Positions 9,136-43,199 of a stretch of 64,000 nt of DNA are shown piece after piece. How positions within the stretch are numbered: the first letter of the stretch is position 1; each line of letters starts with the position of its first letter. Origin of the DNA: a virus (lineage: Duplodnaviria; Caudoviricetes). Made by a program: the position numbers and the translations under genes. The stretch covers positions 1-64,000 of IMG/VR virus record IMGVR_UViG_3300028533_000484; one strand, written 5' to 3'. Below the pieces are notes generated by a model. The model was not told the origin of the DNA. It did not search any database and was given only the letters and a program-made list of their open reading frames with translations.

Positions 9136-9172
9136 TTTCAAAGGCAGTTCTCGAAAAAAATACTGCCCGAAA
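9136..9172 (+). promoter_or_regulatory. Leader RNA stem abutting the RBS; fifth copy of the tRNA-cluster stem motif
   Basis: TTTC-AAA-GGCAGT-TCTCG..AT-ACTGCC-C-GAAA followed directly by GGAG. Confidence 0.7.
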
Positions 9173-9182
9173 GGAGAAAAAA

Positions 9183-11246
9183 ATGAATGTAAATCTTATT
9201 CGTTTGTTTCTTTGCGAAACAAAAGGCAATCAAGTTAATTACGCAAAAGTAGCTGATCGTGCAATTCGTGCTGGTTATATTGTTGAACCAGAAGCAGCAA
9301 CAGTTGATGTAATGAATTTCTTGAATGAGCAAACTCTCAATCCAAATGCTACATTCTACAAACAATGGGAAGATATTCTCTCTCGTACTCGTCTTAAGTT
9401 GGCAATTGACCAGGTTCGTCATTATGCTTCAACTTACGGTTCTATTGAACCTGAAAAAGCTCTCGGTGCAGTTTTGGTAGCAGGAAAAGAAAGCCTCAAT
9501 GTTGAATACAACTGCGAAGGAAATGGATGGGTTCCAAACGACAATCCAATTATTATGCCTTTTAAACAGTTCAAAGTTATTAAAGCAGTAACTGAGGACG
9601 AAGTAAAAGATAAAATCTTAGATTTGTTCCGTTCAGGTTCAGCTTTGAAATCTGACACAATCGATGTTTGTGTTTCGTTCTTGAAAGAGAATGGATTTCT
9701 CAGAATGCTCAACACTGACGAAATCAAAAACAAAGAAGCCCAAGCAACAATTGCTTGTATGACAAAGAACTATCCAACAGATGAATTTGGTTTACTTCGT
9801 TGCATTGTTTATACTTTTACTGGAAAGACAGCTTTAATCAAAGACCGTTCTACAATTTACACAATTGAAGGAAAGAACGGTTTTAGTCCAGTAAATAAAT
9901 TCGACTTTGCAATTCTTTCAGATAAACAGTTGACAAACTTGTCTCGTATCTTCTATCGTTACAAGCCATTGTTCCTTGCAATGAAGAAGTACTACGATAA
10001 CTCAAAATACATCAACAAGTTGCGTAGACTTGCTGAAAAGAATCATACACCTTTAAAGAAAGGTTTCTGGGAAGATTGTTTTAATACTTCAGAACGCGAT
10101 ACAAGTCAACTTTTAAATGAAGCAAGATCTAAGATTTCTGAATTGAACAACTTTAGAAAAGTTCAATTGATGCAGTCAATCATGGAACGTTTGAATGGAC
10201 GTAACATGGACGGTAAGTTGTACGTAATTCGTAACGGAAAGATGTTCGTTCGCGAAGGATATCAACCAAGAACAAATCAAGCTTATTTGATGGACTTGTA
10301 CAATGTTGTTAAAACATCACTTGTTGAAAGTTTGAAAGCAAAAGCAACAACTTTTGCAGTACCAAAGGGCTTACATCTTACATGCCCAACATCTGAAAAG
10401 AACTTTATCGGAAACTATCCAATAGGTACTTCTGTAGACTTCTCAGATTCAGACAACATTGTAGGTATCTACTGGCGTAACGAATGGGGTACAAGAGACT
10501 TCGACCTTCACGTAGTTACTGAAAATGGTCGCCAATATGGTTGGAGTGAAGCCTTCAAAAGTCCAGACCAGGATATCATCTACTCAGGTGATATGACAAA
10601 TGCAGATCCAGAAGCAGTAGAACTGTTCTACTTCAAGAGAGATATGCCAGATGGTTTCGTAAACGTAAACAAGTTTAACGGTAACGACAGCTCAAAACTT
10701 CGTTTGTTTGTTGCAAAAGAGAATATTGTTAGAAAGCTTGCTTCAGGAAAACAAGATTCTTGGAGATACAACAATCGCAATGACAGAAAGTTAGAGAACT
10801 ATATGGTTGATCCAAACAACATTGTTGCAGAAGCAATGTTGGATTTCTCAAATTGTTCTCAGAAGACAATTGCTTATATTCAAGATAATCGTTTATACAT
10901 CATGGCTTTGCAGTCAGGTAATGGTAGAGTTTCTACTAGAACAAATCAAGAAATTATTCAGCAAGCAAACAAAGTAAAAGCTGATTCTTATATTGATTTG
11001 GTATCGATTCTCGAAGAAGCTGGTTTCAAGAAAGTTGCCGAAGGACATACAGATGCAGTTACTGAAGCAAAAGAAGAAGTAACAAATGTTGATGTAACTG
11101 GACTTACAGCTGAAGAAGCAATTGCAAAAGTAAAAGCTGAATATGAAAGATTAGATGTTGTAAATGCAAAGAAGGATGAAGTCGTTGAAGTCGGTCTTGA
11201 CTTGACAAATCCTACACCAGATGTATTATTAAAGTTGTTTAATTAA
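9183..11246 (+). CDS. 687-aa protein with C-terminal TerD-like domain; candidate RNA-binding protein
   Basis: GIYW...DFDLH...GW...YSGDMTNA...E pattern resembles TerD-like domains; strong codon bias suggests high expression. Confidence 0.5.
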   Translation: MNVNLIRLFLCETKGNQVNYAKVADRAIRAGYIVEPEAATVDVMNFLNEQTLNPNATFYKQWEDILSRTRLKLAIDQVRHYASTYGSIEPEKALGAVLVAGKESLNVEYNCEGNGWVPNDNPIIMPFKQFKVIKAVTEDEVKDKILDLFRSGSALKSDTIDVCVSFLKENGFLRMLNTDEIKNKEAQATIACMTKNYPTDEFGLLRCIVYTFTGKTALIKDRSTIYTIEGKNGFSPVNKFDFAILSDKQLTNLSRIFYRYKPLFLAMKKYYDNSKYINKLRRLAEKNHTPLKKGFWEDCFNTSERDTSQLLNEARSKISELNNFRKVQLMQSIMERLNGRNMDGKLYVIRNGKMFVREGYQPRTNQAYLMDLYNVVKTSLVESLKAKATTFAVPKGLHLTCPTSEKNFIGNYPIGTSVDFSDSDNIVGIYWRNEWGTRDFDLHVVTENGRQYGWSEAFKSPDQDIIYSGDMTNADPEAVELFYFKRDMPDGFVNVNKFNGNDSSKLRLFVAKENIVRKLASGKQDSWRYNNRNDRKLENYMVDPNNIVAEAMLDFSNCSQKTIAYIQDNRLYIMALQSGNGRVSTRTNQEIIQQANKVKADSYIDLVSILEEAGFKKVAEGHTDAVTEAKEEVTNVDVTGLTAEEAIAKVKAEYERLDVVNAKKDEVVEVGLDLTNPTPDVLLKLFN

Positions 11247-11387: not shown

Positions 11388-12119
11388 ATGATAGAAATTT
11401 TGGACTGGACTTGTAAAGATCCATTGAATTTGATTGGCTTTTGTGCCGGAGTTTGTTGGAATGCTCCTGTAAATGATGTAGAAAAAAACATCAATCGTGC
11501 AAAGAATTGCATTAAGTCTAATCATGGTAGAGCGTTGGAATATCCAGATGTATATGTTGTAATGGATGAGTACTCAGCCCGTGTTATTAGAGAGTTTTAT
11601 ACACATATTATTGGCACTACTCGTTTACAATCCTCTACCAGATATGTAGATGCAAAAGAAATGAATCCTGAAAAAGATTTTTATACACCAGTTAATTTCA
11701 CAGATACCCAAAAAAATATTTTATTAAAAGGTTATCAGGAAATTATGAAAACATATACCGATTTAGAAAACAACGGAGTAAGTAAAGAGGATGCTGCTAA
11801 TATTCTACCTTTAGGTATGCATACTAAAATTGTTGCAAAAATTAATTTAAGAGCTTTAGAGCACATGGCTCATAAGAGAAATTGTAATAGGGCTTACAAA
11901 GAGTTTAGAGCTTTAATGAAAGAGTTTGAATCTAAACTTGAACAAATCTCTGGAGAGTGGAAATGGATTTGTAAAAACATGTTAGTACCTGAATGCAAGA
12001 CTTTAGGTTACTGTCCTGAAGTAAAAGGTTGCGGTCTGGAGATTTCTAAGGAAGAAGCTTTGAAAGCCATTAAATATTGGAAAGAGAACAAAGCCAGAAT
12101 TGAGGATGATGGAAAATAG
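11388..12119 (+). CDS. thyX: FAD-dependent thymidylate synthase
   Basis: HGRALE, QSSTRYV, EDAANILP and NLRAL motifs. Confidence 0.9.
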   Translation: MIEILDWTCKDPLNLIGFCAGVCWNAPVNDVEKNINRAKNCIKSNHGRALEYPDVYVVMDEYSARVIREFYTHIIGTTRLQSSTRYVDAKEMNPEKDFYTPVNFTDTQKNILLKGYQEIMKTYTDLENNGVSKEDAANILPLGMHTKIVAKINLRALEHMAHKRNCNRAYKEFRALMKEFESKLEQISGEWKWICKNMLVPECKTLGYCPEVKGCGLEISKEEALKAIKYWKENKARIEDDGK

Positions 12120-12328: not shown

Positions 12329-13087
12329 ATGACATTAAAAACAAAACTTCGAAACGGTCTTGCATACTACAGGCATCACTCTCCAGTCTTAAGAAATCTT
12401 TTAGATACTTTCGAATTAAATGATTATGAATATGCTGTTGTCGGAGGCTTTGTAAAGAGTGTTATTGCATATCACTTGCATAAAGCTTCTGAAAGTCCTA
12501 GAGATATTGATGTTGTTGTAGATATCGATACTCAGGAGCTTGAATACATTTTTAAACAGTATCGTATAAAGCATCAAAAGAATGATTTTGGCGGTTATAA
12601 GATTCTCGACAATACAGGTACATTCAATACACCTATTGATATTTGGTGTTTGAAGAATCATCAACCTTTCAAGACTTTTCCTGAAAAGTTCCACAATTGG
12701 AAAGGTATAGTAGAGTCTAGTTGGATTTCAATCTGTGGAGGAGTATATCTTCCACAGTCTAATAAAATCTATATCAAGGGTCTAAAAGATTCAATTCGAA
12801 AAGAACAAATAACTTTCCGACATCCAGAAATCTTTTTCGAAAGTAAAAACGTTATAAACAAATATACAGTTGTAGCAAAATTAATTGATCTTAGTTATGC
12901 CTATAAATTAGATAAGAATTGTCTTAAAGCAATTACCGAGTATCTTGCAAAACACAAGGATAATAAATCTCTTGTAAATTATCTAGAAAGTCATAGCACA
13001 AGATGCGTAGGAAGTTGGGGAAAAGAAATCAATGAAAGATTTAGAATCTTTAATGAAGCCTTCTATCCTCGGAAAGTTCCCAACTAG
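12329..13087 (+). CDS. Nucleotidyltransferase, poly(A) polymerase/CCA-enzyme head-like
   Basis: VVGGFVK...PRDIDVVV, FGGYK and IDIW motifs. Confidence 0.7.
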   Translation: MTLKTKLRNGLAYYRHHSPVLRNLLDTFELNDYEYAVVGGFVKSVIAYHLHKASESPRDIDVVVDIDTQELEYIFKQYRIKHQKNDFGGYKILDNTGTFNTPIDIWCLKNHQPFKTFPEKFHNWKGIVESSWISICGGVYLPQSNKIYIKGLKDSIRKEQITFRHPEIFFESKNVINKYTVVAKLIDLSYAYKLDKNCLKAITEYLAKHKDNKSLVNYLESHSTRCVGSWGKEINERFRIFNEAFYPRKVPN

Positions 13088-40500: not shown

Positions 40501-41194
40501 GAGAGTAGAAATAATTAAAGCTGCTGATAAAAAACTAAAGGATGCTATCGAGACAGTTTTTGAAAAAAATCCTTTTTTAGATTCAAAAGAGTCATCTGCT
40601 TTTCCTGCGGAATGGATTTACAATATTACAGAAGAGCATCTAAAAACTCTATTCTTGGCAGTTAATGATAAATTAGATACAGTAAAAGTTGCCGAAAACC
40701 AGGATGAAACTTGTAAAGAGTTTGAAGCAAAAATGGAAGAGCTTCGCAAATTAGATACAGTTTTTGCAAATTGTTCTTGGAAGCCAAATAAAGATAAAAC
40801 ATTGCTTGATGCAGAGGTAGAATATTACTATGGTGAATGGAATTTTGCTGGACAAGTTGAACAAAATGGTAAAGAGTATTTTCTAGAGAAGCCTGAGGAT
40901 CTCTACGAATATTTAAAGACTCTTGCACAAGATTAATCTACAATTCTATACTAATTTTATAAAAATACCTTTTATCTTTCGGATGAAAGGTTGCTGTTCT
41001 CGTAAGATGCAGCGTAAAATTGCTTTTATGAAAGCTTTAAGTATTTACAGTGGTTACTTTTAAGTAGCAAAAAGCTTTCAACTTTTTTGAAGTTTTAAGA
41101 AAAGAAACACCTATATTATAAATGTTGATAGTTACAAATAAAGTAACTCGAAACATTTAAGTTCTTTGACACTATTAGGGATAGTTAATTTTTT

Positions 41195-41268
41195 AGGGCT
41201 ATAACTCAGTTGGCTAGAGTGTCAGCTTTGCAAGCTGAAGGTCGTGAGTTCAAATCTCACTAGTTCCA
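41195..41268 (+). tRNA. tRNA-Ala(TGC)
   Basis: Cloverleaf; TCAGC-TT-TGC-AA-GCTGA; G3:U70. Confidence 0.9.
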
Positions 41269-41282
41269 TTTCAAATAAATAA

Positions 41283-41518
41283 TCAGGGTGATATTCAGAA
41301 AACTTCACACTCGTAACAAAGAATCCTAATAAGATTAGGTAGGGCAGGATGGAGATAAATAAGGAAGCGTTGTTCACTTCTCGAAAATTAGCCCGACTCT
41401 TAAATGAGTCACCTTCATCAATTCTATTCAAGGTTGTAAAGCTCGTTAGAGTACCAGGAATAGGAAATCAGTTCAAGTATTACTTGAGCTACTGTAAAGA
41501 CAGAATTACGAACTATCT
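41283..41518 (+). ncRNA. Structured non-coding RNA with partial RNase P RNA-like features
   Basis: Multiple hairpins; AGAAAACTTCACACTC, ACTCGTAAC/GTTAGAGT pairing, GTAAA and AGACAGA motifs; no P4 partner found. Confidence 0.3.
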
Positions 41519-41590
41519 GGTCTGTTCGGCTAGTGGTTAGGCCACAAGGTTTTCATCCTTGTAGCACGGGTTCAATTCCCGTACAGACCT
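41519..41590 (+). tRNA. tRNA-Glu(TTC)
   Basis: Cloverleaf; CAAGG-TT-TTC-AT-CCTTG. Confidence 0.9.
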
Positions 41591-41591
41591 T

Positions 41592-41713
41592 ATCGCAGAA
41601 ATTGTTCCTATTAACTCGGTATCATAAACCAGTAGTCGAGGTTCGAATCCTCGGGTCCCCAATTTCGTGGGGATTTGGTGTAATGGTAGCACGCTATATA
41701 TACAATTCGCGAT
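41592..41713 (+). ncRNA. Stem-motif RNA 1 enclosing a circularly permuted tRNA (CAT anticodon)
   Basis: Order is anticodon arm, T arm (CGAGG-TTCGAAT-CCTCG), loop-closed acceptor (GGTCCCC..GGGGATT), D arm (GTGT..GCAC). Confidence 0.85.
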
Positions 41714-41719
41714 TTTTTT

Positions 41720-41803
41720 GGAAGTATGGATGAATTGGCAAAATCACCAACCTGCTAAGTTGGTTACCTTCGGGTAGTGCGTGGTCGGGACACGCTGCTT
41801 CCG
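41720..41803 (+). tRNA. tRNA-Ser(GCT) with atypical T-loop
   Basis: CCAAC-CT-GCT-AA-GTTGG; long variable arm; T-loop GTCGGGA. Confidence 0.8.
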
Positions 41804-42120
41804 CTAAAGCTAAGCTGTAAAAGTTCCCTACAGATTTAGCAACACTGTTTGACGGTATCAGGTGTAAAAGCTTTACACAAGTCAAAACCGAAAAGAGTAA
41901 TTTGCTTTTCAACTTTGATAAAAACCGGCCTTTCGTAAGCGCTTACGAATAAAAAAGGGAACACCTTTTTTGAATACAGTAATATAGACTTTTCTATATT
42001 GTAAAAAGTTGTGGCTATGCAACTTAAAAAGATACAACACTGCAGGAAGTCAGCTGTTTGACTTTGTTAACGTTGTTACATAGTGTTTGTGAGTTGCTGC
42101 AAACTGCAACTCCTTTTCAA

Positions 42121-42219
42121 CACTGTCTAGCAAAATACAGATAGGCGCGCGCTTATTGCTTATCTAGGATAATGTGCCATTGCGCGATGGAGGTCCAGGT
42201 TCGAGTCCTGGGGCAGTGA
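42121..42219 (+). tRNA. tRNA-like RNA with D-loop hairpin insertion and irregular anticodon arm
   Basis: Acceptor CACTGTC/GGCAGTG; T arm CCAGG-TTCGAGT-CCTGG; inserted helix AGATAGGCG/TGCTTATCT. Confidence 0.65.
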
Positions 42220-42288
42220 AAATCGATACTCGACGGAGTTCGATAGTAGGCGACCCATATCCGACGGGAGTGGTTGAATCGTCGAAGT

Positions 42289-42382
42289 GGCTTATTCGTC
42301 TAAGGTTGAGTAACGTCAACTAAAGGTAAGGACGCTGGTGTATATTCACCGGAAATGGTGAGTTCAATTCTCCCATAAGTTA
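42289..42382 (+). tRNA. tRNA-like RNA (Glu/Asp-type body) with D-loop hairpin insertion and 8-nt anticodon loop
   Basis: Acceptor GGCTTAT/ATAAGTT; D stem GTCT/GGAC with GTTGA/TCAAC insert; CTGGT-GTATATTC-ACCGG. Confidence 0.65.
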
Positions 42383-42391
42383 CATTTTTGT

Positions 42392-42448
42392 AGTGCATAA
42401 GTTGTTCCTATTGTAAAGAATGCTTTTGGTTTTTATACAACTCGCACT
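42392..42448 (+). ncRNA. Stem-motif RNA 2 (no tRNA cargo)
   Basis: AGTGC-ATA-AGTTGT-TCCTATT..AT-ACAACT-C-GCACT around a short loop. Confidence 0.75.
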
Positions 42449-42673
42449 TTTATTTTTAAGCTAAAACGGTCAAATAACATTAGCAAGCAAGACCTGTTGT
42501 CCGTTATCTGAAGGGTCTCTAAACAAGGTGTTAATGTGTATGACAATTTCTAGATCATGTCACGTGGCTTAAGGGATGAGCCCTTCACAAGGAGTAAGAG
42601 TCTCCGGAGTTATAGGATTAGAAATTGTAACGAAACAGCACCCTTTTGACAGAGGTTGTGATAGGACGTTTGT

Positions 42674-42747
42674 GGAGTTATGGAGCAGATGGTTAGCTCA
42701 GGTGACTGTCACTCACCAGGTCACGGGTTCGAGTCCCGTTAACTCCG
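42674..42747 (+). tRNA. tRNA-Asp(GTC)
   Basis: Cloverleaf; GGTGA-CT-GTC-AC-TCACC. Confidence 0.92.
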
Positions 42748-42808
42748 TACAAAAGTAGCATTAGTGGTTGCAAACACGAGGCTATTGTAGGAAATTCGAA
42801 ATTCCTAT

Positions 42809-42972
42809 CGATTATATGGTGTATGGGTGCACAGCCGGCCCGAGTACTTGACAATAAGGCCTGACGATAGCTTACGACCTGCATTAAGCAGACGACGGAG
42901 CGACAATAGGGCCTGACGATAAAGGAAACAGGTCGGCAGGGTGAGTTAAGGTTCGAGTCCTTCGTATAATTG
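42809..42972 (+). ncRNA. tRNA-like RNA whose anticodon arm is a ~100-nt rod
   Basis: Acceptor CGATTATA/TATAATTG; D arm GTGT/GCAC; helix GCCGGCC/GGTCGGC; T arm AAGG-TTCGAGT-CCTT; internal 20-nt direct repeat. Confidence 0.7.
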
Positions 42973-42979
42973 TATTTAC

Positions 42980-43052
42980 AGCGGGATAAAGCAGTTGGCA
43001 GCTTGCGAGCCCCATAAGCTCGATGTCGAAGGTTCGAGTCCTTCTCCCGCCA
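42980..43052 (+). tRNA. tRNA-Met(CAT), initiator-like 1:72 mismatch, C33
   Basis: AGCGGGA/TCCCGCC-A; CGAGC-CC-CAT-AA-GCTCG. Confidence 0.85.
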
Positions 43053-43057
43053 AAACA

Positions 43058-43181
43058 AACGCATAGGTTGTTCCTATTCTCAGAGTTGTCGAGTAGCTCA
43101 ATTTGGTAGAGCACTAGATATCTAATCTAGAGGTTGTGAGTTCGAATCTCACCTCAACGTCCATGATATACAACTCGCGTT
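43058..43181 (+). ncRNA. Stem-motif RNA 3 enclosing a normal-order tRNA
   Basis: AACGC-ATA-GGTTGT-TCCTATT..AT-ACAACT-C-GCGTT. Confidence 0.8.
43087..43163 (+). tRNA. tRNA-Arg(TCT)-like with A33 and encoded CCA, nested in stem-motif RNA 3
   Basis: CTAGA-TA-TCT-AA-TCTAG; GTGAG-TTCGAAT-CTCAC; ends TCCA. Confidence 0.75.
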
Positions 43182-43199
43182 CGATTTTAGAAAATTATT

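What the first reader, a model, noticed from the sequence alone, without database searches (positions are those of the whole stretch)
41592..41713. Circularly permuted tRNA (CAT anticodon) with a loop-closed acceptor stem
Seen: anticodon arm (loop ATCATAA), then a canonical T arm, the 3' acceptor strand GGTCCCCA, a 6-nt loop, the 5' acceptor strand TGGGGATT, then the D arm. The break is between the D and anticodon arms. Established: permuted tRNA genes are known from some algae and archaea, and YrlA RNAs have a permuted tRNA-like domain. Inference: this RNA keeps an anticodon hairpin but cannot be charged unless it is cut in the acceptor loop and ligated at the junction.
Basis: partly seen in the sequence, partly recalled or inferred. 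Interest (0 to 1): 0.85.

Follow-up and report, generated by a model that had tools for sequence, protein, structure and literature searches.

The report
Back-to-front tRNA-Met on protein handle
A giant gut or rumen phage encodes a complete methionine tRNA in back-to-front order with its amino-acid end capped by a loop, held in a conserved RNA "handle" that travels with one unstudied protein and RNA-repair ligases, so it is more likely a tRNA look-alike on an RNA-protein particle than a working tRNA.

Summary
Window 41593-41712 holds every part of a tRNA-Met(CAU) in circularly permuted order, and the re-ordered sequence is called tRNA-Met. The break lies at 28/29 inside the anticodon stem, not between the D and anticodon arms. 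The flanks form a conserved "handle": a 4-5 bp stem, a 3-nt bulge opposite one C, a 6-bp stem ending GU/AC, then UCCUAUU. The 140-kb record has seven strict copies plus a one-mismatch eighth. They wrap two permuted tRNAs, one normal tRNA-Arg and short inserts; one copy abuts the ribosome-binding site of a 687-aa TerD-domain gene.

About 55 handle-wrapped permuted tRNAs occur in other large phages, and all helices covary. One is a tRNA-Met counterpart with compensatory changes. Across bacteria and archaea, 79 of 80 loci encoding this protein have handles directly upstream, in Chryseobacterium directly after RtcB.

My best reading (0.55) is a Y-RNA/YrlA-like scaffold RNA carrying a capped tRNA-Met mimic, with a different handle and partner and no Ro60. 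The main rival (0.25) is a true permuted tRNA matured by cutting and RtcB ligation. No RNA data exist. Earlier notes of this scan describe the same handle-protein pair on other DNA. I found no paper describing it.

The parts
41593..41605 (+). Handle 5' strand: outer stem TCGC (41593-96; A41592 can add a fifth pair with T41713), 3-nt bulge AGA (41597-99), inner stem AATTGT (41600-05)
   Evidence: Pairing scan of the whole record; RNAalifold consensus; covariation counts
41606..41617 (+). 5' linker: conserved TCCTATT (41606-12) followed by AACTC
   Evidence: TCCTATT is the commonest start of the cargo in handle copies from other loci (57 of the 177 unique relaxed-scan hits, which include false positives)
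41618..41632 (+). Anticodon hairpin: nt 29-31 GGT, 7-nt loop ATCATAA (U33, anticodon CAU, A37), nt 39-43 ACCAG
   Evidence: The loop sequence is identical in the L275 counterpart
41633..41653 (+). Variable loop TAGT and T arm CGAGG-TTCGAAT-CCTCG
41654..41675 (+). Closed acceptor hairpin: 3' strand GGTCCCC, A73, loop ATTTCG, U(-1), 5' strand GGGGATT. Seven pairs plus a 73:-1 pair. No encoded CCA
   Evidence: Compensatory changes at 3:70, 5:68 and 6:67 in L275
41676..41695 (+). U8, G9, D arm GTGT-AATGGTA-GCAC, G26, then C27 and T28, which pair with A42 and G43 across the break
   Evidence: In the family alignment the helix 42-43:27-28 is paired in 87% of cells, with 5-6 pair types
41696..41712 (+). 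3' linker ATATAT and handle 3' strand: ACAATT, single C (41708), GCGA
41713..41719 (+). Run of seven T directly after the handle. A T run also follows the L275 counterpart. Meaning unknown
   Evidence: About half of all handle copies are followed by a T-rich stretch
42393..42447 (+). Sibling handle RNA with a 31-nt non-tRNA insert
   Evidence: R1 match of 37.8 bits
43059..43180 (+). Sibling handle that wraps an ordinary-order tRNA-Arg(UCU) (43087-43163)
43200..43325 (+). Sibling handle with a second permuted tRNA (Asn, GUU). The break is again at 28/29. The acceptor hairpin has a bulged A
   Evidence: R1 match of 111 bits
9136..9172 (+). Handle-like hairpin (TTTC-AAA-GGCAGT ... ACTGCC-C-GAAA) that ends directly at the GGAG ribosome-binding site of the next gene
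9183..11246 (+). 687-aa protein with a helical N-terminal part and a TerD-like beta sandwich. It is the candidate handle-binding partner
   Evidence: AF2 model pLDDT 81. TerD matches at Z 9-10 over residues 421-596. In 79 of 80 cellular loci encoding a homologue, handles lie directly upstream

Best explanation
The element is a small non-coding RNA of about 120 nt built like a bacterial Y RNA of the YrlA type. Its two ends pair into a conserved handle that is probably bound by the phage's 687-aa TerD-domain protein. The body is a complete tRNA-Met(CAU) look-alike. The acceptor end of that body is capped by a loop. The anticodon stem is assembled across the break: nt 27-28 come from the 3' piece and nt 29-31 from the 5' piece.

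The RNA therefore displays a genuine anticodon arm and tRNA elbow but cannot be charged as made. I infer that the particle works alongside RNA ligases (RtcB in related phages and in bacterial operons) in the contest over tRNA cleavage. It could act as a decoy or docking module for enzymes that recognise the anticodon arm of particular tRNAs, or as a tether that brings the partner protein to them.

Shown: the anatomy, conservation, covariation and gene linkage.
Inferred: protein binding, transcription as one unit, and the decoy or tether role.
For: - Handle copies: seven on the + strand of the 140-kb record and none on the - strand. They wrap two permuted tRNAs, one normal tRNA and short inserts.
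- Independent fold: the RNAalifold consensus recovers the handle, anticodon hairpin, T arm, closed acceptor and D arm.
- Family size: a covariance model finds about 55 full-length relatives in phage contigs. All seven helices covary, with 92.9% of cells paired against 35-45% for slid controls.
- Counterpart: the L275 tRNA-Met element has compensatory changes in both handle stems, three acceptor pairs, the T stem and the D stem, and an unchanged anticodon loop.
- Link to the partner protein: homologues were found in 164 cellular loci. In 79 of the best 80, handles lie within 1.2 kb upstream on the same strand. That is 180 perfect handles in 94 kb, against 1 in 948 kb of the remaining + strand and 1 on the whole - strand.
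- Repair context: the Chryseobacterium operon runs RtcB, three handle RNAs, TerD-like protein, RlaP. Kordia has Rnl1 and PNKP downstream. RtcB is present in 4 of 4 related near-complete phages.
- Against a decoding role: the phage also has three normal tRNA(CAU) genes and a normal tRNA-Asn. In 9 of 23 cases a normal tRNA with the same anticodon lies in the same locus.
- Acceptor caps: in phages whose tRNA genes encode CCA, most permuted tRNAs of this class have lost CCA and carry short or extended hairpin caps. One variant has no acceptor stem at all (L009).
- Variable geometry: the break position (27/28 to 31/32) and the linker lengths (5' mostly 9-15 nt, one of 5; 3' 5-10 nt) vary.
- Precedent: YrlA has the same topology and sits in the rsr-yrlBA-rtcBA operon (PMC4201824; 10.1101/312249).
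Against: - There is no transcript, binding or processing datum of any kind.
- The anticodon loop is fully canonical and conserved, as expected of a decoding tRNA.
- The acceptor is a clean 7-bp stem with A73 and U(-1), which bacterial RNase P could cut. M. smegmatis YrlA is cut in this way and receives CCA (PMC4201824).
- A sister class of permuted tRNAs (Pro-like) keeps an encoded N73-CCA in the acceptor loop, which suggests real 3' ends there.
- The link to the partner protein rests on gene neighbourhood only. In this phage the gene lies 32 kb away.
- The N-terminal fold of the protein is unidentified.
Confidence: 0.55

Rival explanations
1. It is a true circularly permuted tRNA-Met gene. 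The handle holds the two ends together. An endonuclease removes the two linkers, and an RNA ligase (phage RtcB) joins nt 28 to nt 29 to give a circular tRNA. RNase P, 3' trimming and the CCA-adding enzyme then open the acceptor loop to yield a chargeable tRNA.
For: - The re-ordered sequence is a canonical tRNA-Met with a perfect anticodon stem, U33, A37, U8, A14, G18, G19, T54-C56 and A73.
- The anticodon loop is unchanged in the L275 counterpart while the stems drift.
- RtcB is encoded by 4 of 4 related near-complete phages and lies next to the handle array in Chryseobacterium.
- The Pro-like class conserves N73-CCA inside the acceptor loop in most members.
- U(-1) is the base bacterial RNase P prefers (established knowledge).
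Against: - No endonuclease candidate was found. The tRNA splicing endonuclease is absent, there is no bulge-helix-bulge motif, and the partner protein shows no recognisable nuclease fold.
- The break position and both linker lengths vary between relatives, which does not fit a ruler-like cut.
- The same handle wraps normal tRNAs and non-tRNA inserts that need no ligation.
- The element is redundant with normal isoacceptors.
- Short, stable caps with 73:-1 paired, loss of CCA in phages that otherwise encode it, and a form lacking the acceptor stem all argue against a working 3' end.
Confidence: 0.25
2. It is a two-piece tRNA. Only RNase P and 3' processing open the acceptor loop. The two halves stay together through the acceptor stem, the handle and tertiary contacts, as in two-piece tmRNA, and the RNA is charged without any ligation.
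For: - The weak Rfam hit of the T arm plus acceptor hairpin to the permuted cyanobacterial tmRNA model (E = 0.037) shows the same local layout.
- M. smegmatis YrlA is cleaved by RNase P and receives CCA in vivo (PMC4201824).
Against: - A handle branching from the 5' strand of the anticodon stem would probably clash with the ribosomal decoding sites. This is an inference from established ribosome-tRNA contacts.
- The same objections from acceptor caps and redundancy apply as above.
Confidence: 0.07
3. It is a Y RNA in the strict sense, and the handle is bound by a Ro60/Rsr protein of the host, so the phage hijacks or soaks up the host Ro60.
For: - The handle 5' strand (GC-AWA-R) loosely resembles the bacterial Y RNA motif GNCGAAN0-1G (PMC4201824).
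- A TROVE protein is present in Bacteroides thetaiotaomicron, one of the control genomes.
Against: - The motif is not matched: position 4 is A, not G.
- No Rfam family reached E <= 10 apart from weak tmRNA and thermometer hits.
- TROVE is absent from this record and from four related phage genomes.
- The handle is tied about 900-fold to a different protein family.
Confidence: 0.07
4. It is a decaying remnant of a tandem tRNA duplication, or another rearrangement, with no function.
For: Tandem duplication followed by loss of the outer halves is the textbook route to a permuted tRNA gene. The element lies in a tRNA cluster.
Against: - The same layout occurs for at least eight anticodons in about 30 contigs, with compensatory changes in every helix.
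- The L275 counterpart preserves all the helices.
- The element is only 60-67% identical to the phage's normal tRNA(CAU) genes, so it is old and has been maintained.
Confidence: 0.03

Closest known systems
YrlA-type bacterial and phage Y RNAs with Ro60/Rsr (Chen et al. 2014, PMC4201824; Wang et al. 2018, 10.1101/312249)
   Same: - The two ends pair into a protein-binding stem.
- The body is a circularly permuted tRNA-like domain in the order T arm, loop-closed acceptor, D arm.
- The stem in the place of the anticodon stem is formed between the 5' and 3' segments.
- The genes lie in or near RtcB RNA-repair operons.
- Several such RNAs occur per locus, some with and some without the tRNA-like part (compare YrlB).
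   Different: - The handle has a different sequence and shape. The Y RNA motif GNCGAAN0-1G is absent, the 3-nt bulge is on the 5' strand opposite a single C, and UCCUAUU follows.
- No TROVE/Ro60 gene is present. The linked protein has a TerD-like domain instead of TROVE plus vWA.
- A full 7-nt anticodon loop with a real anticodon is kept, which YrlA lacks.
- The handle is a side branch at 28/29 rather than a continuation of the anticodon stem.
- No Rfam hit.
Circularly permuted tRNA genes of Cyanidioschyzon merolae, some green algae and Thermofilum pendens (recalled from the literature, Soma et al. 2007; not re-read here)
   Same: - The 3' half precedes the 5' half.
- A short intervening sequence lies between the acceptor strands.
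- The re-ordered sequence is a canonical tRNA.
- The flanks pair with each other.
   Different: - Those precursors carry a bulge-helix-bulge motif that is cut by the splicing endonuclease and then circularised.
- Here there is no such motif and no such enzyme.
- The flanks here are a conserved protein-associated handle shared with non-permuted cargos.
- The host is a bacteriophage.
[quoted passage not shown] The original paper was not held and was not read
   Same: A tRNA-like RNA linked to a non-Ro protein in RtcB repair neighbourhoods. One archaeal TerD-like locus (L271) has a Band_7 gene directly downstream.
   Different: b7a-tRNA is described as resembling an ordinary tRNA. No handle, no permutation and no TerD-domain partner are reported in the text I could read.
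Permuted (two-piece) tmRNA genes (Rfam RF01851 and relatives)
   Same: The T arm and 3' acceptor strand come before the 5' acceptor strand, joined by a loop that is removed. There is a weak local model match.
   Different: There is no tag reading frame, no pseudoknots and no G3.U70 alanine identity (here G3-C70). The element is only about 120 nt long and has a real anticodon arm.

Membership tests
Circularly permuted tRNA gene (algal/archaeal type) | The 3' half is encoded upstream of the 5' half, and the re-ordered sequence scores as a tRNA | tested here: met
   ARAGORN calls tRNA-Met(cat) on the re-ordered and on the circular sequence
Circularly permuted tRNA gene (algal/archaeal type) | Leader and trailer form a bulge-helix-bulge motif at the junction | tested here: not met
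   By inspection, the flanks form a 4-5 bp stem, a 3-nt bulge opposite one C, and a 6-bp stem. There are no two 3-nt bulges separated by 4 bp
Circularly permuted tRNA gene (algal/archaeal type) | A tRNA splicing endonuclease is available | tested here: not met
   PF01974 is absent from G000 and from G001-G004, while the archaeal controls rang. The host genome was not examined
Circularly permuted tRNA gene (algal/archaeal type) | A circular intermediate and a mature joined tRNA exist | not testable with these tools
   No RNA data are available
YrlA / Y RNA (Ro60 partner) | The terminal stem is formed by the 5' and 3' ends and carries the protein-binding site | tested here: met
   The handle is conserved and covaries. 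Protein binding itself was not tested
YrlA / Y RNA (Ro60 partner) | Permuted tRNA-like domain with T arm, closed acceptor stem and D arm | tested here: met
YrlA / Y RNA (Ro60 partner) | Ro60-binding motif GNCGAAN0-1G (bacteria) or GGUCCGA (animals) on the 5' strand | tested here: not met
   Here the 5' strand reads CGC-AGA-AAUUGU. The family consensus is GGC-AWA-NNNNGU. The motif is taken from PMC4201824
YrlA / Y RNA (Ro60 partner) | Encoded with a Ro60/Rsr (TROVE) gene | tested here: not met
   PF05731 is absent from G000 (35% complete) and from G001-G004, of which three are at least 98% complete
YrlA / Y RNA (Ro60 partner) | Match to the curated RNA family model | tested here: not met
   No Y RNA family was among the matches at E <= 10 on 41560-41740 or at E <= 1 on a Chryseobacterium handle array
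Handle RNA with TerD-domain protein (apparently undescribed; defined here and in earlier notes of this scan) | Handle consensus: outer stem, 3-nt A-rich bulge opposite a single C, 6-bp stem ending GU/AC, then UCCU... | tested here: met
   41593-41605 pairs with 41702-41712 and matches exactly. R1 score 104 bits
Handle RNA with TerD-domain protein (apparently undescribed; defined here and in earlier notes of this scan) | The TerD-domain partner gene is in the same genome, with a handle in front of it | tested here: met
   Gene at 9183-11246 with a handle-like hairpin at 9136-9172. The rule holds in 79 of 80 cellular loci
Handle RNA with TerD-domain protein (apparently undescribed; defined here and in earlier notes of this scan) | An RNA ligase (RtcB or Rnl1) is in the genome or operon | tested here: inconclusive
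   None was found in the 140-kb fragment. RtcB is present in 4 of 4 related phages and lies next to the handles in Chryseobacterium
Two-piece (permuted) tmRNA | Tag reading frame, pseudoknots and G3.U70 | tested here: not met
   The element is about 120 nt between two tRNA genes and has G3-C70. Only a local hit to RF01851 positions 62-106 was found, at E = 0.037

The most novel reading that the evidence does not exclude
The handle marks a protein-guided, RtcB-dependent RNA cut-and-join pathway in phages, bacteria and archaea, a bacterial counterpart of tRNA splicing or of Ire1-RtcB splicing. Under this reading, handle-wrapped permuted genes such as this tRNA-Met are cut at their linkers, ligated at 28/29, opened by RNase P and used in translation. 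Their production would then depend on the phage's own repair machinery.
Probability: 0.2. Interest if true: 0.95.

Novelty: new variant of a known kind. Interest (0 to 1): 0.78.

Why it matters
- Permuted tRNA genes are known only from a few algae and one archaeon, as far as I recall; a search for "permuted tRNA" with "phage" found no phage case.
- tRNA-mimicking Y RNAs are known only as partners of Ro60.
- Here a full tRNA, anticodon included, is mounted back-to-front on a different, widely conserved handle.
- That handle travels with an uncharacterised TerD-domain protein and with RNA ligases in phages, bacteria and archaea.
- If the particle is real, it is a second, independent solution of the Ro60/Y-RNA design.
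- The anticodons it displays lean towards the Asn, Thr, Lys, Ile and Met class. Part of that class is known to be attacked by anticodon-arm nucleases such as PARIS AriB (PMC12409363).
- This makes a concrete, testable link between phage tRNA clusters, tRNA-cleaving defences and RNA repair.
- If instead the RNA is matured into a working tRNA, it would be the first ligation-dependent tRNA gene in bacteria or their viruses.

Tried and rejected
Searches that found nothing useful:
- Megablast of the tRNA cluster against GenBank phages gave only an unrelated 39-nt tRNA match.
- The exact 22-mer of the T arm plus acceptor is absent from viral contigs.
- The neighbouring exonuclease has no close relatives in viral contigs.
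- Rfam gave only tRNAs at gathering scores, and weak tmRNA and thermometer hits at E <= 10.
- Rfam has no family for the Chryseobacterium handle array.

Enzymes and partners looked for in this record:
- RtcB, Rnl1 and TROVE are absent from the fragment. The Rnl1 search rang in no control genome, so it says little.
- RlaP is absent from all five phage records.

Fold of the partner protein:
- No Pfam, PHROG, NCBIfam or PADLOC family matched, apart from one sub-threshold Pfam hit (CCSAP, E = 0.014, below its cut-off).
- The N-terminal part gave only generic helical-hairpin matches at Z <= 8.4, from a weak model of pLDDT 64. Neither a Ro60-like ring nor a HEPN nuclease could be shown or excluded.
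- I considered the invariant N278, R281, H288, P290 residues as a HEPN-like Rx5-6H motif. I dropped this for lack of any fold support.

Other checks:
- The genome-wide pattern GGCAWANNNNGTTCCTATT hit at least 120 loci. Only 7 of the 80 I examined had a complete handle, and about 500 chance matches are expected for that pattern. I therefore used the protein-anchored search instead.
- The closest relative found through a neighbouring gene (L030, 92% protein identity) has a rearranged tRNA cluster with a normal tRNA-Met and a permuted tRNA-Asn, but no tRNA-Met element at the matching place.
- The promoter and terminator scan was no better than shuffles.
- The AriB cut site (40/41) does not coincide with the break (28/29), so the idea of a missing scissile bond is not supported.
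- The T run after the handle follows only about half of the copies.
Full report
**Where the element lies.** The window is the first 64 kb of a 140,446-base IMG/VR virus record that CheckV rates as 35% complete, so it is a fragment of a very large phage. ARAGORN and Rfam find eight and seven ordinary tRNA genes at 41194-43484. The finding occupies the 129-nt gap between tRNA-Glu(UUC) (41519-41590) and tRNA-Ser(GCU) (41720-41804).

**Checking the observation.** In order they are:
- anticodon loop ATCATAA (41621-41627)
- T arm (41637-41653)
- acceptor 3' strand GGTCCCC (41654-41660) and A73
- a 6-nt loop, then U(-1)
- acceptor 5' strand GGGGATT (41669-41675)
- U8 and G9
- D arm (41678-41692) and G26

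The re-ordered sequence, and the sequence treated as a circle, are both called tRNA-Met(cat) by ARAGORN.

When I tried all nearby join points, the best join was at 28/29. C27 and T28, which follow G26 after the D arm, pair with A42 and G43. Together with G29, G30 and T31 from the 5' piece they give a perfect 5-bp anticodon stem. A 26/27 join leaves a C.A mismatch.

**The flanks are a conserved handle.** The flanks 41593-41605 and 41702-41712 pair with each other (MFE fold).
- a 4-bp outer stem
- a 3-nt bulge opposite a single C
- a 6-bp inner stem ending GT/AC
- T(C/T) directly after it

On the whole 140-kb record the scan gives seven copies on the + strand and none on the - strand. A relaxed scan that allows one mismatch adds an eighth at 99392. 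The cargos of the seven strict copies are:
- 41593: this permuted tRNA-Met
- 43200: a second permuted tRNA (Asn, GUU), also joined at 28/29
- 43059: an ordinary-order tRNA-Arg(UCU)
- 42393, 95642 and 98989: short inserts of 31-48 nt
- 9136: a 13-nt loop, in a hairpin that ends directly at the GGAG ribosome-binding site of a 687-aa open reading frame

The stems differ between copies by compensatory changes.

**Relatives in other phages.** Two pattern scans of viral contigs returned 20 and 44 loci, many from contigs of 200-424 kb. A parser that fixes every tRNA part relative to the T arm and D arm, so that no free splicing is possible, recognised about 36 distinct handle-wrapped permuted tRNAs.

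RNAalifold on six of them independently recovered both handle stems, the anticodon hairpin, the T arm, the closed acceptor and the D arm. Of its 31 predicted pairs, 22 show compensatory changes.

A covariance model built from that alignment, with the 27-28:42-43 pairs added, finds about 55 full-length matches above 48 bits in 67 sources. On the resulting alignment:
- 92.9% of pair cells are standard pairs, against 35-45% when the partners are slid by 1-3 columns.
- All seven helices covary.
- The two pairs that bridge the break are paired in 87% of cells, with 5-6 pair types.

The caveat is that this alignment was fitted to the model.

**A counterpart of this tRNA-Met element.** A metagenome scan found one counterpart, L275:9218-9332, lying between tRNA-Trp and tRNA-Ser. 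Relative to the window copy it has compensatory changes in:
- the outer handle stem (UCGC/GCGA to AAGC/GCUU)
- the inner handle stem (A-U to G-C)
- acceptor pairs 3:70, 5:68 and 6:67
- the T stem and the D stem

The anticodon loop AUCAUAA, A73, U(-1) and most of the acceptor loop are unchanged. The join there is one base further along, at 29/30. The structure has therefore been maintained by selection. The element is only 60-67% identical to the phage's three ordinary tRNA(CAU) genes, so it is not a recent copy of one of them.

**The partner protein.**
- The 687-aa protein has no Pfam family above threshold (one weak CCSAP hit, E = 0.014) and no PHROG, NCBIfam or PADLOC family.
- It has more than 1,190 homologues.
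- An AF2 model (pLDDT 81) shows a helical N-terminal part and a TerD-like beta sandwich. The sandwich matches 2qz7 and 2kxt at Z 9-10 over residues 421-596.
- The N-terminal fold could not be identified.
- All four related phage genomes I could search encode the protein. In one, a six-handle array that includes a permuted tRNA-Thr lies about 165 nt upstream of the gene. In another, a handle RNA ends 45 nt upstream.

A protein-anchored search of one genome per prokaryotic species found 164 relatives. The best 80 come from many Chryseobacterium species, Cloacibacterium, Kordia, Saprospiraceae, Melioribacteraceae, Desulfobacteraceae, Ca. Venteria, Aminicenantes, Pacearchaeota and Promethearchaeota.

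In 79 of these 80 loci, one to five handles lie within 1.2 kb upstream on the same strand. As a control, there are 180 perfect handles in 94 kb of upstream windows. The remaining 948 kb of + strand holds one, and the whole - strand holds one. Because the loci were chosen by protein similarity, this association does not follow from how the handles were found.

**RNA-repair context.**
- In Chryseobacterium the order is RtcB, three handle RNAs, the TerD-domain protein (30% identical to the phage protein, E = 2e-60), RlaP, an unknown gene, an R2K ATP-grasp gene and a second RlaP.
- RtcB is adjacent in 69 of the 80 loci, though most of these are one genus. A Pacearchaeota locus also has RtcB and RlaP.
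- Kordia has T4-type RNA ligase 1 and a polynucleotide kinase-phosphatase downstream. One archaeal locus has a Band_7 gene downstream.
- RtcB is present in 4 of 4 related near-complete phages. It was not found in this 35% fragment.
- TROVE/Ro60 is absent from this record and from those four genomes.
- The tRNA splicing endonuclease is also absent from all five.

This mirrors the Salmonella rsr-yrlBA-rtcBA operon, in which Ro60 and the YrlA and YrlB RNAs sit beside RtcB. YrlA is a permuted tRNA-like RNA with a closed acceptor (PMC4201824; 10.1101/312249).

**Mimic or working tRNA?**

Points that favour a mimic:
1. The phage already has three normal tRNA(CAU) genes, a normal tRNA-Asn(GUU) and a second tRNA-Arg(UCU). 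Even in partial loci, 9 of 23 permuted anticodons have a normal tRNA with the same anticodon nearby.
2. The acceptor is capped. Here A73 pairs with U(-1) under a 6-nt loop. In relatives the caps are UUCG-type tetraloops or extend the helix by 2-3 pairs. In phages whose normal tRNA genes encode CCA, most permuted tRNAs of this class have no CCA. One variant lacks the acceptor stem entirely.
3. The join position ranges from 27/28 to 31/32, and the linkers vary (5' mostly 9-15 nt, with one of 5; 3' 5-10 nt). This fits a scaffold better than a precise cut-and-join. When all five stem nucleotides come from the 3' piece, the topology is exactly that of YrlA.
4. The same handle carries ordinary tRNAs and non-tRNA inserts.

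Points that favour a working tRNA:
- The anticodon loop is canonical and conserved.
- The acceptor is a clean 7-bp stem with A73 and the U(-1) that RNase P prefers.
- There is a precedent: RNase P cuts M. smegmatis YrlA, which then receives CCA (PMC4201824).
- A ligase is available.
- A sister Pro-like class conserves N73-CCA in a longer AT-rich acceptor loop.

On balance I rate the mimic-on-a-particle reading at 0.55 and maturation by ligation at 0.25. The remainder is shared by a two-piece tRNA, a Ro60-bound Y RNA and a non-functional remnant.

**A pattern in the anticodons.** Among 22 well-parsed relatives with canonical loops and perfect stems, 14 have anticodons ending in U (Asn GUU, Thr GGU and UGU, Lys UUU, Ile GAU, Met CAU). 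About a quarter would be expected by chance. The cases are not independent, so this is only suggestive. [quoted passage not shown] This is why I propose a decoy or docking role. AriB cuts at 40/41, not at the break, and it did not cleave tRNA-Met in that study. The link is an analogy and not evidence for this element.

**Novelty.** I found no paper describing permuted tRNAs in bacteriophages or a TerD-domain partner of Y-like RNAs. Burroughs and Aravind 2016, the most likely place for a prior prediction, was not held, so I cannot exclude that they noted the protein. Within this scan, the handle and TerD pair has been reported before on at least eight other genomes. Those are unchecked AI notes that agree with what I tested here. 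New in this report:
- the anatomy of this tRNA-Met member and its join at 28/29
- its counterpart in L275
- the split of permuted cargos into capped and CCA-bearing classes
- their redundancy with normal tRNAs in the same phage

Noticed in passing
window 43200-43325: A second handle-wrapped permuted tRNA (Asn, GUU) is joined at 28/29. Its closed acceptor has a bulged A in the 3' strand and an 11-nt loop. It is 75% identical to the phage's normal tRNA-Asn at G000 94560.
   Followed up: partly
window 43059-43180: The same handle wraps an ordinary-order tRNA-Arg(UCU), joined at the acceptor ends by linkers of 15 and 9 nt. A second, unwrapped tRNA-Arg(UCU) lies at G000 98731.
   Followed up: partly
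L002:4831-4966, L039:1407-1542, L043:298-433, L053:1388-1517, L058:2156-2291, L066:5307-5441, L074:6444-6572: A Pro-like class of handle-wrapped permuted tRNAs has a CGGGGAG/CTCCCCG-type acceptor and G37. N73-CCA is conserved at the start of an AT-rich acceptor loop of 11-19 nt, and the join lies at or near the anticodon loop. These are the best candidates for permuted tRNAs that gain a real 3' end.
   Followed up: partly
L009:1476-1575, L014:759-858, L015:4596-4695: This handle RNA has an anticodon arm (CUU), a T arm and a D arm but no acceptor stem. The T arm is joined to the D arm by CTTAGTA.
   Followed up: no
L251:8741-10658 (Kordia); L271:7883-8806 (archaeon): Downstream of the TerD-domain gene, Kordia has T4-type RNA ligase 1 plus a kinase-phosphatase in place of RtcB. 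An archaeal locus has a Band_7 (SPFH) gene there, the protein family that Burroughs and Aravind linked to another tRNA-like RNA.
   Followed up: no
L251:5839-5913 (Kordia): A bacterial handle RNA has a 51-nt insert that contains a T-arm-like hairpin (CTGG-TTCGACT-CCAG) and a short GAAA-capped hairpin. It is a miniature tRNA-like cargo in a cellular genome.
   Followed up: no
L011, L017, L018, L020, L021 and similar (for example L021:61-180): In phages of 290-416 kb, a handle 5' strand (ATGC-ATA-TAACGT-TCCTATT) is followed by a T arm and a CTTCCCC(A/T)C acceptor-like strand, with no 3' handle strand within 260 nt. It may be a longer RNA, such as a permuted tmRNA-like gene. It scores only about 27 bits with R1.
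   Followed up: no
window 42190-42215, 42355-42375 and 42945-42965: T-arm-like motifs (GGTTCGAGTCC, GAGTTCAATTCTC, GGTTCGAGTCC) lie in stretches of the tRNA cluster where neither ARAGORN nor Rfam calls a gene. They may be further non-standard tRNA-like RNAs.
   Followed up: no
window 43331-43404: ARAGORN calls a tRNA with a two-base anticodon, which means an 8-nt anticodon loop (CATTCCAG). Another note on this window also flags it.
   Followed up: no
window 11388-12119 and 12329-13087: Downstream of the TerD-domain gene lie a ThyX-type thymidylate synthase (PF02511) and a 252-aa protein with weak, sub-threshold similarity to nucleotidyltransferase families (DUF6932; PolyA_pol head domain, E = 0.075).
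   Followed up: no
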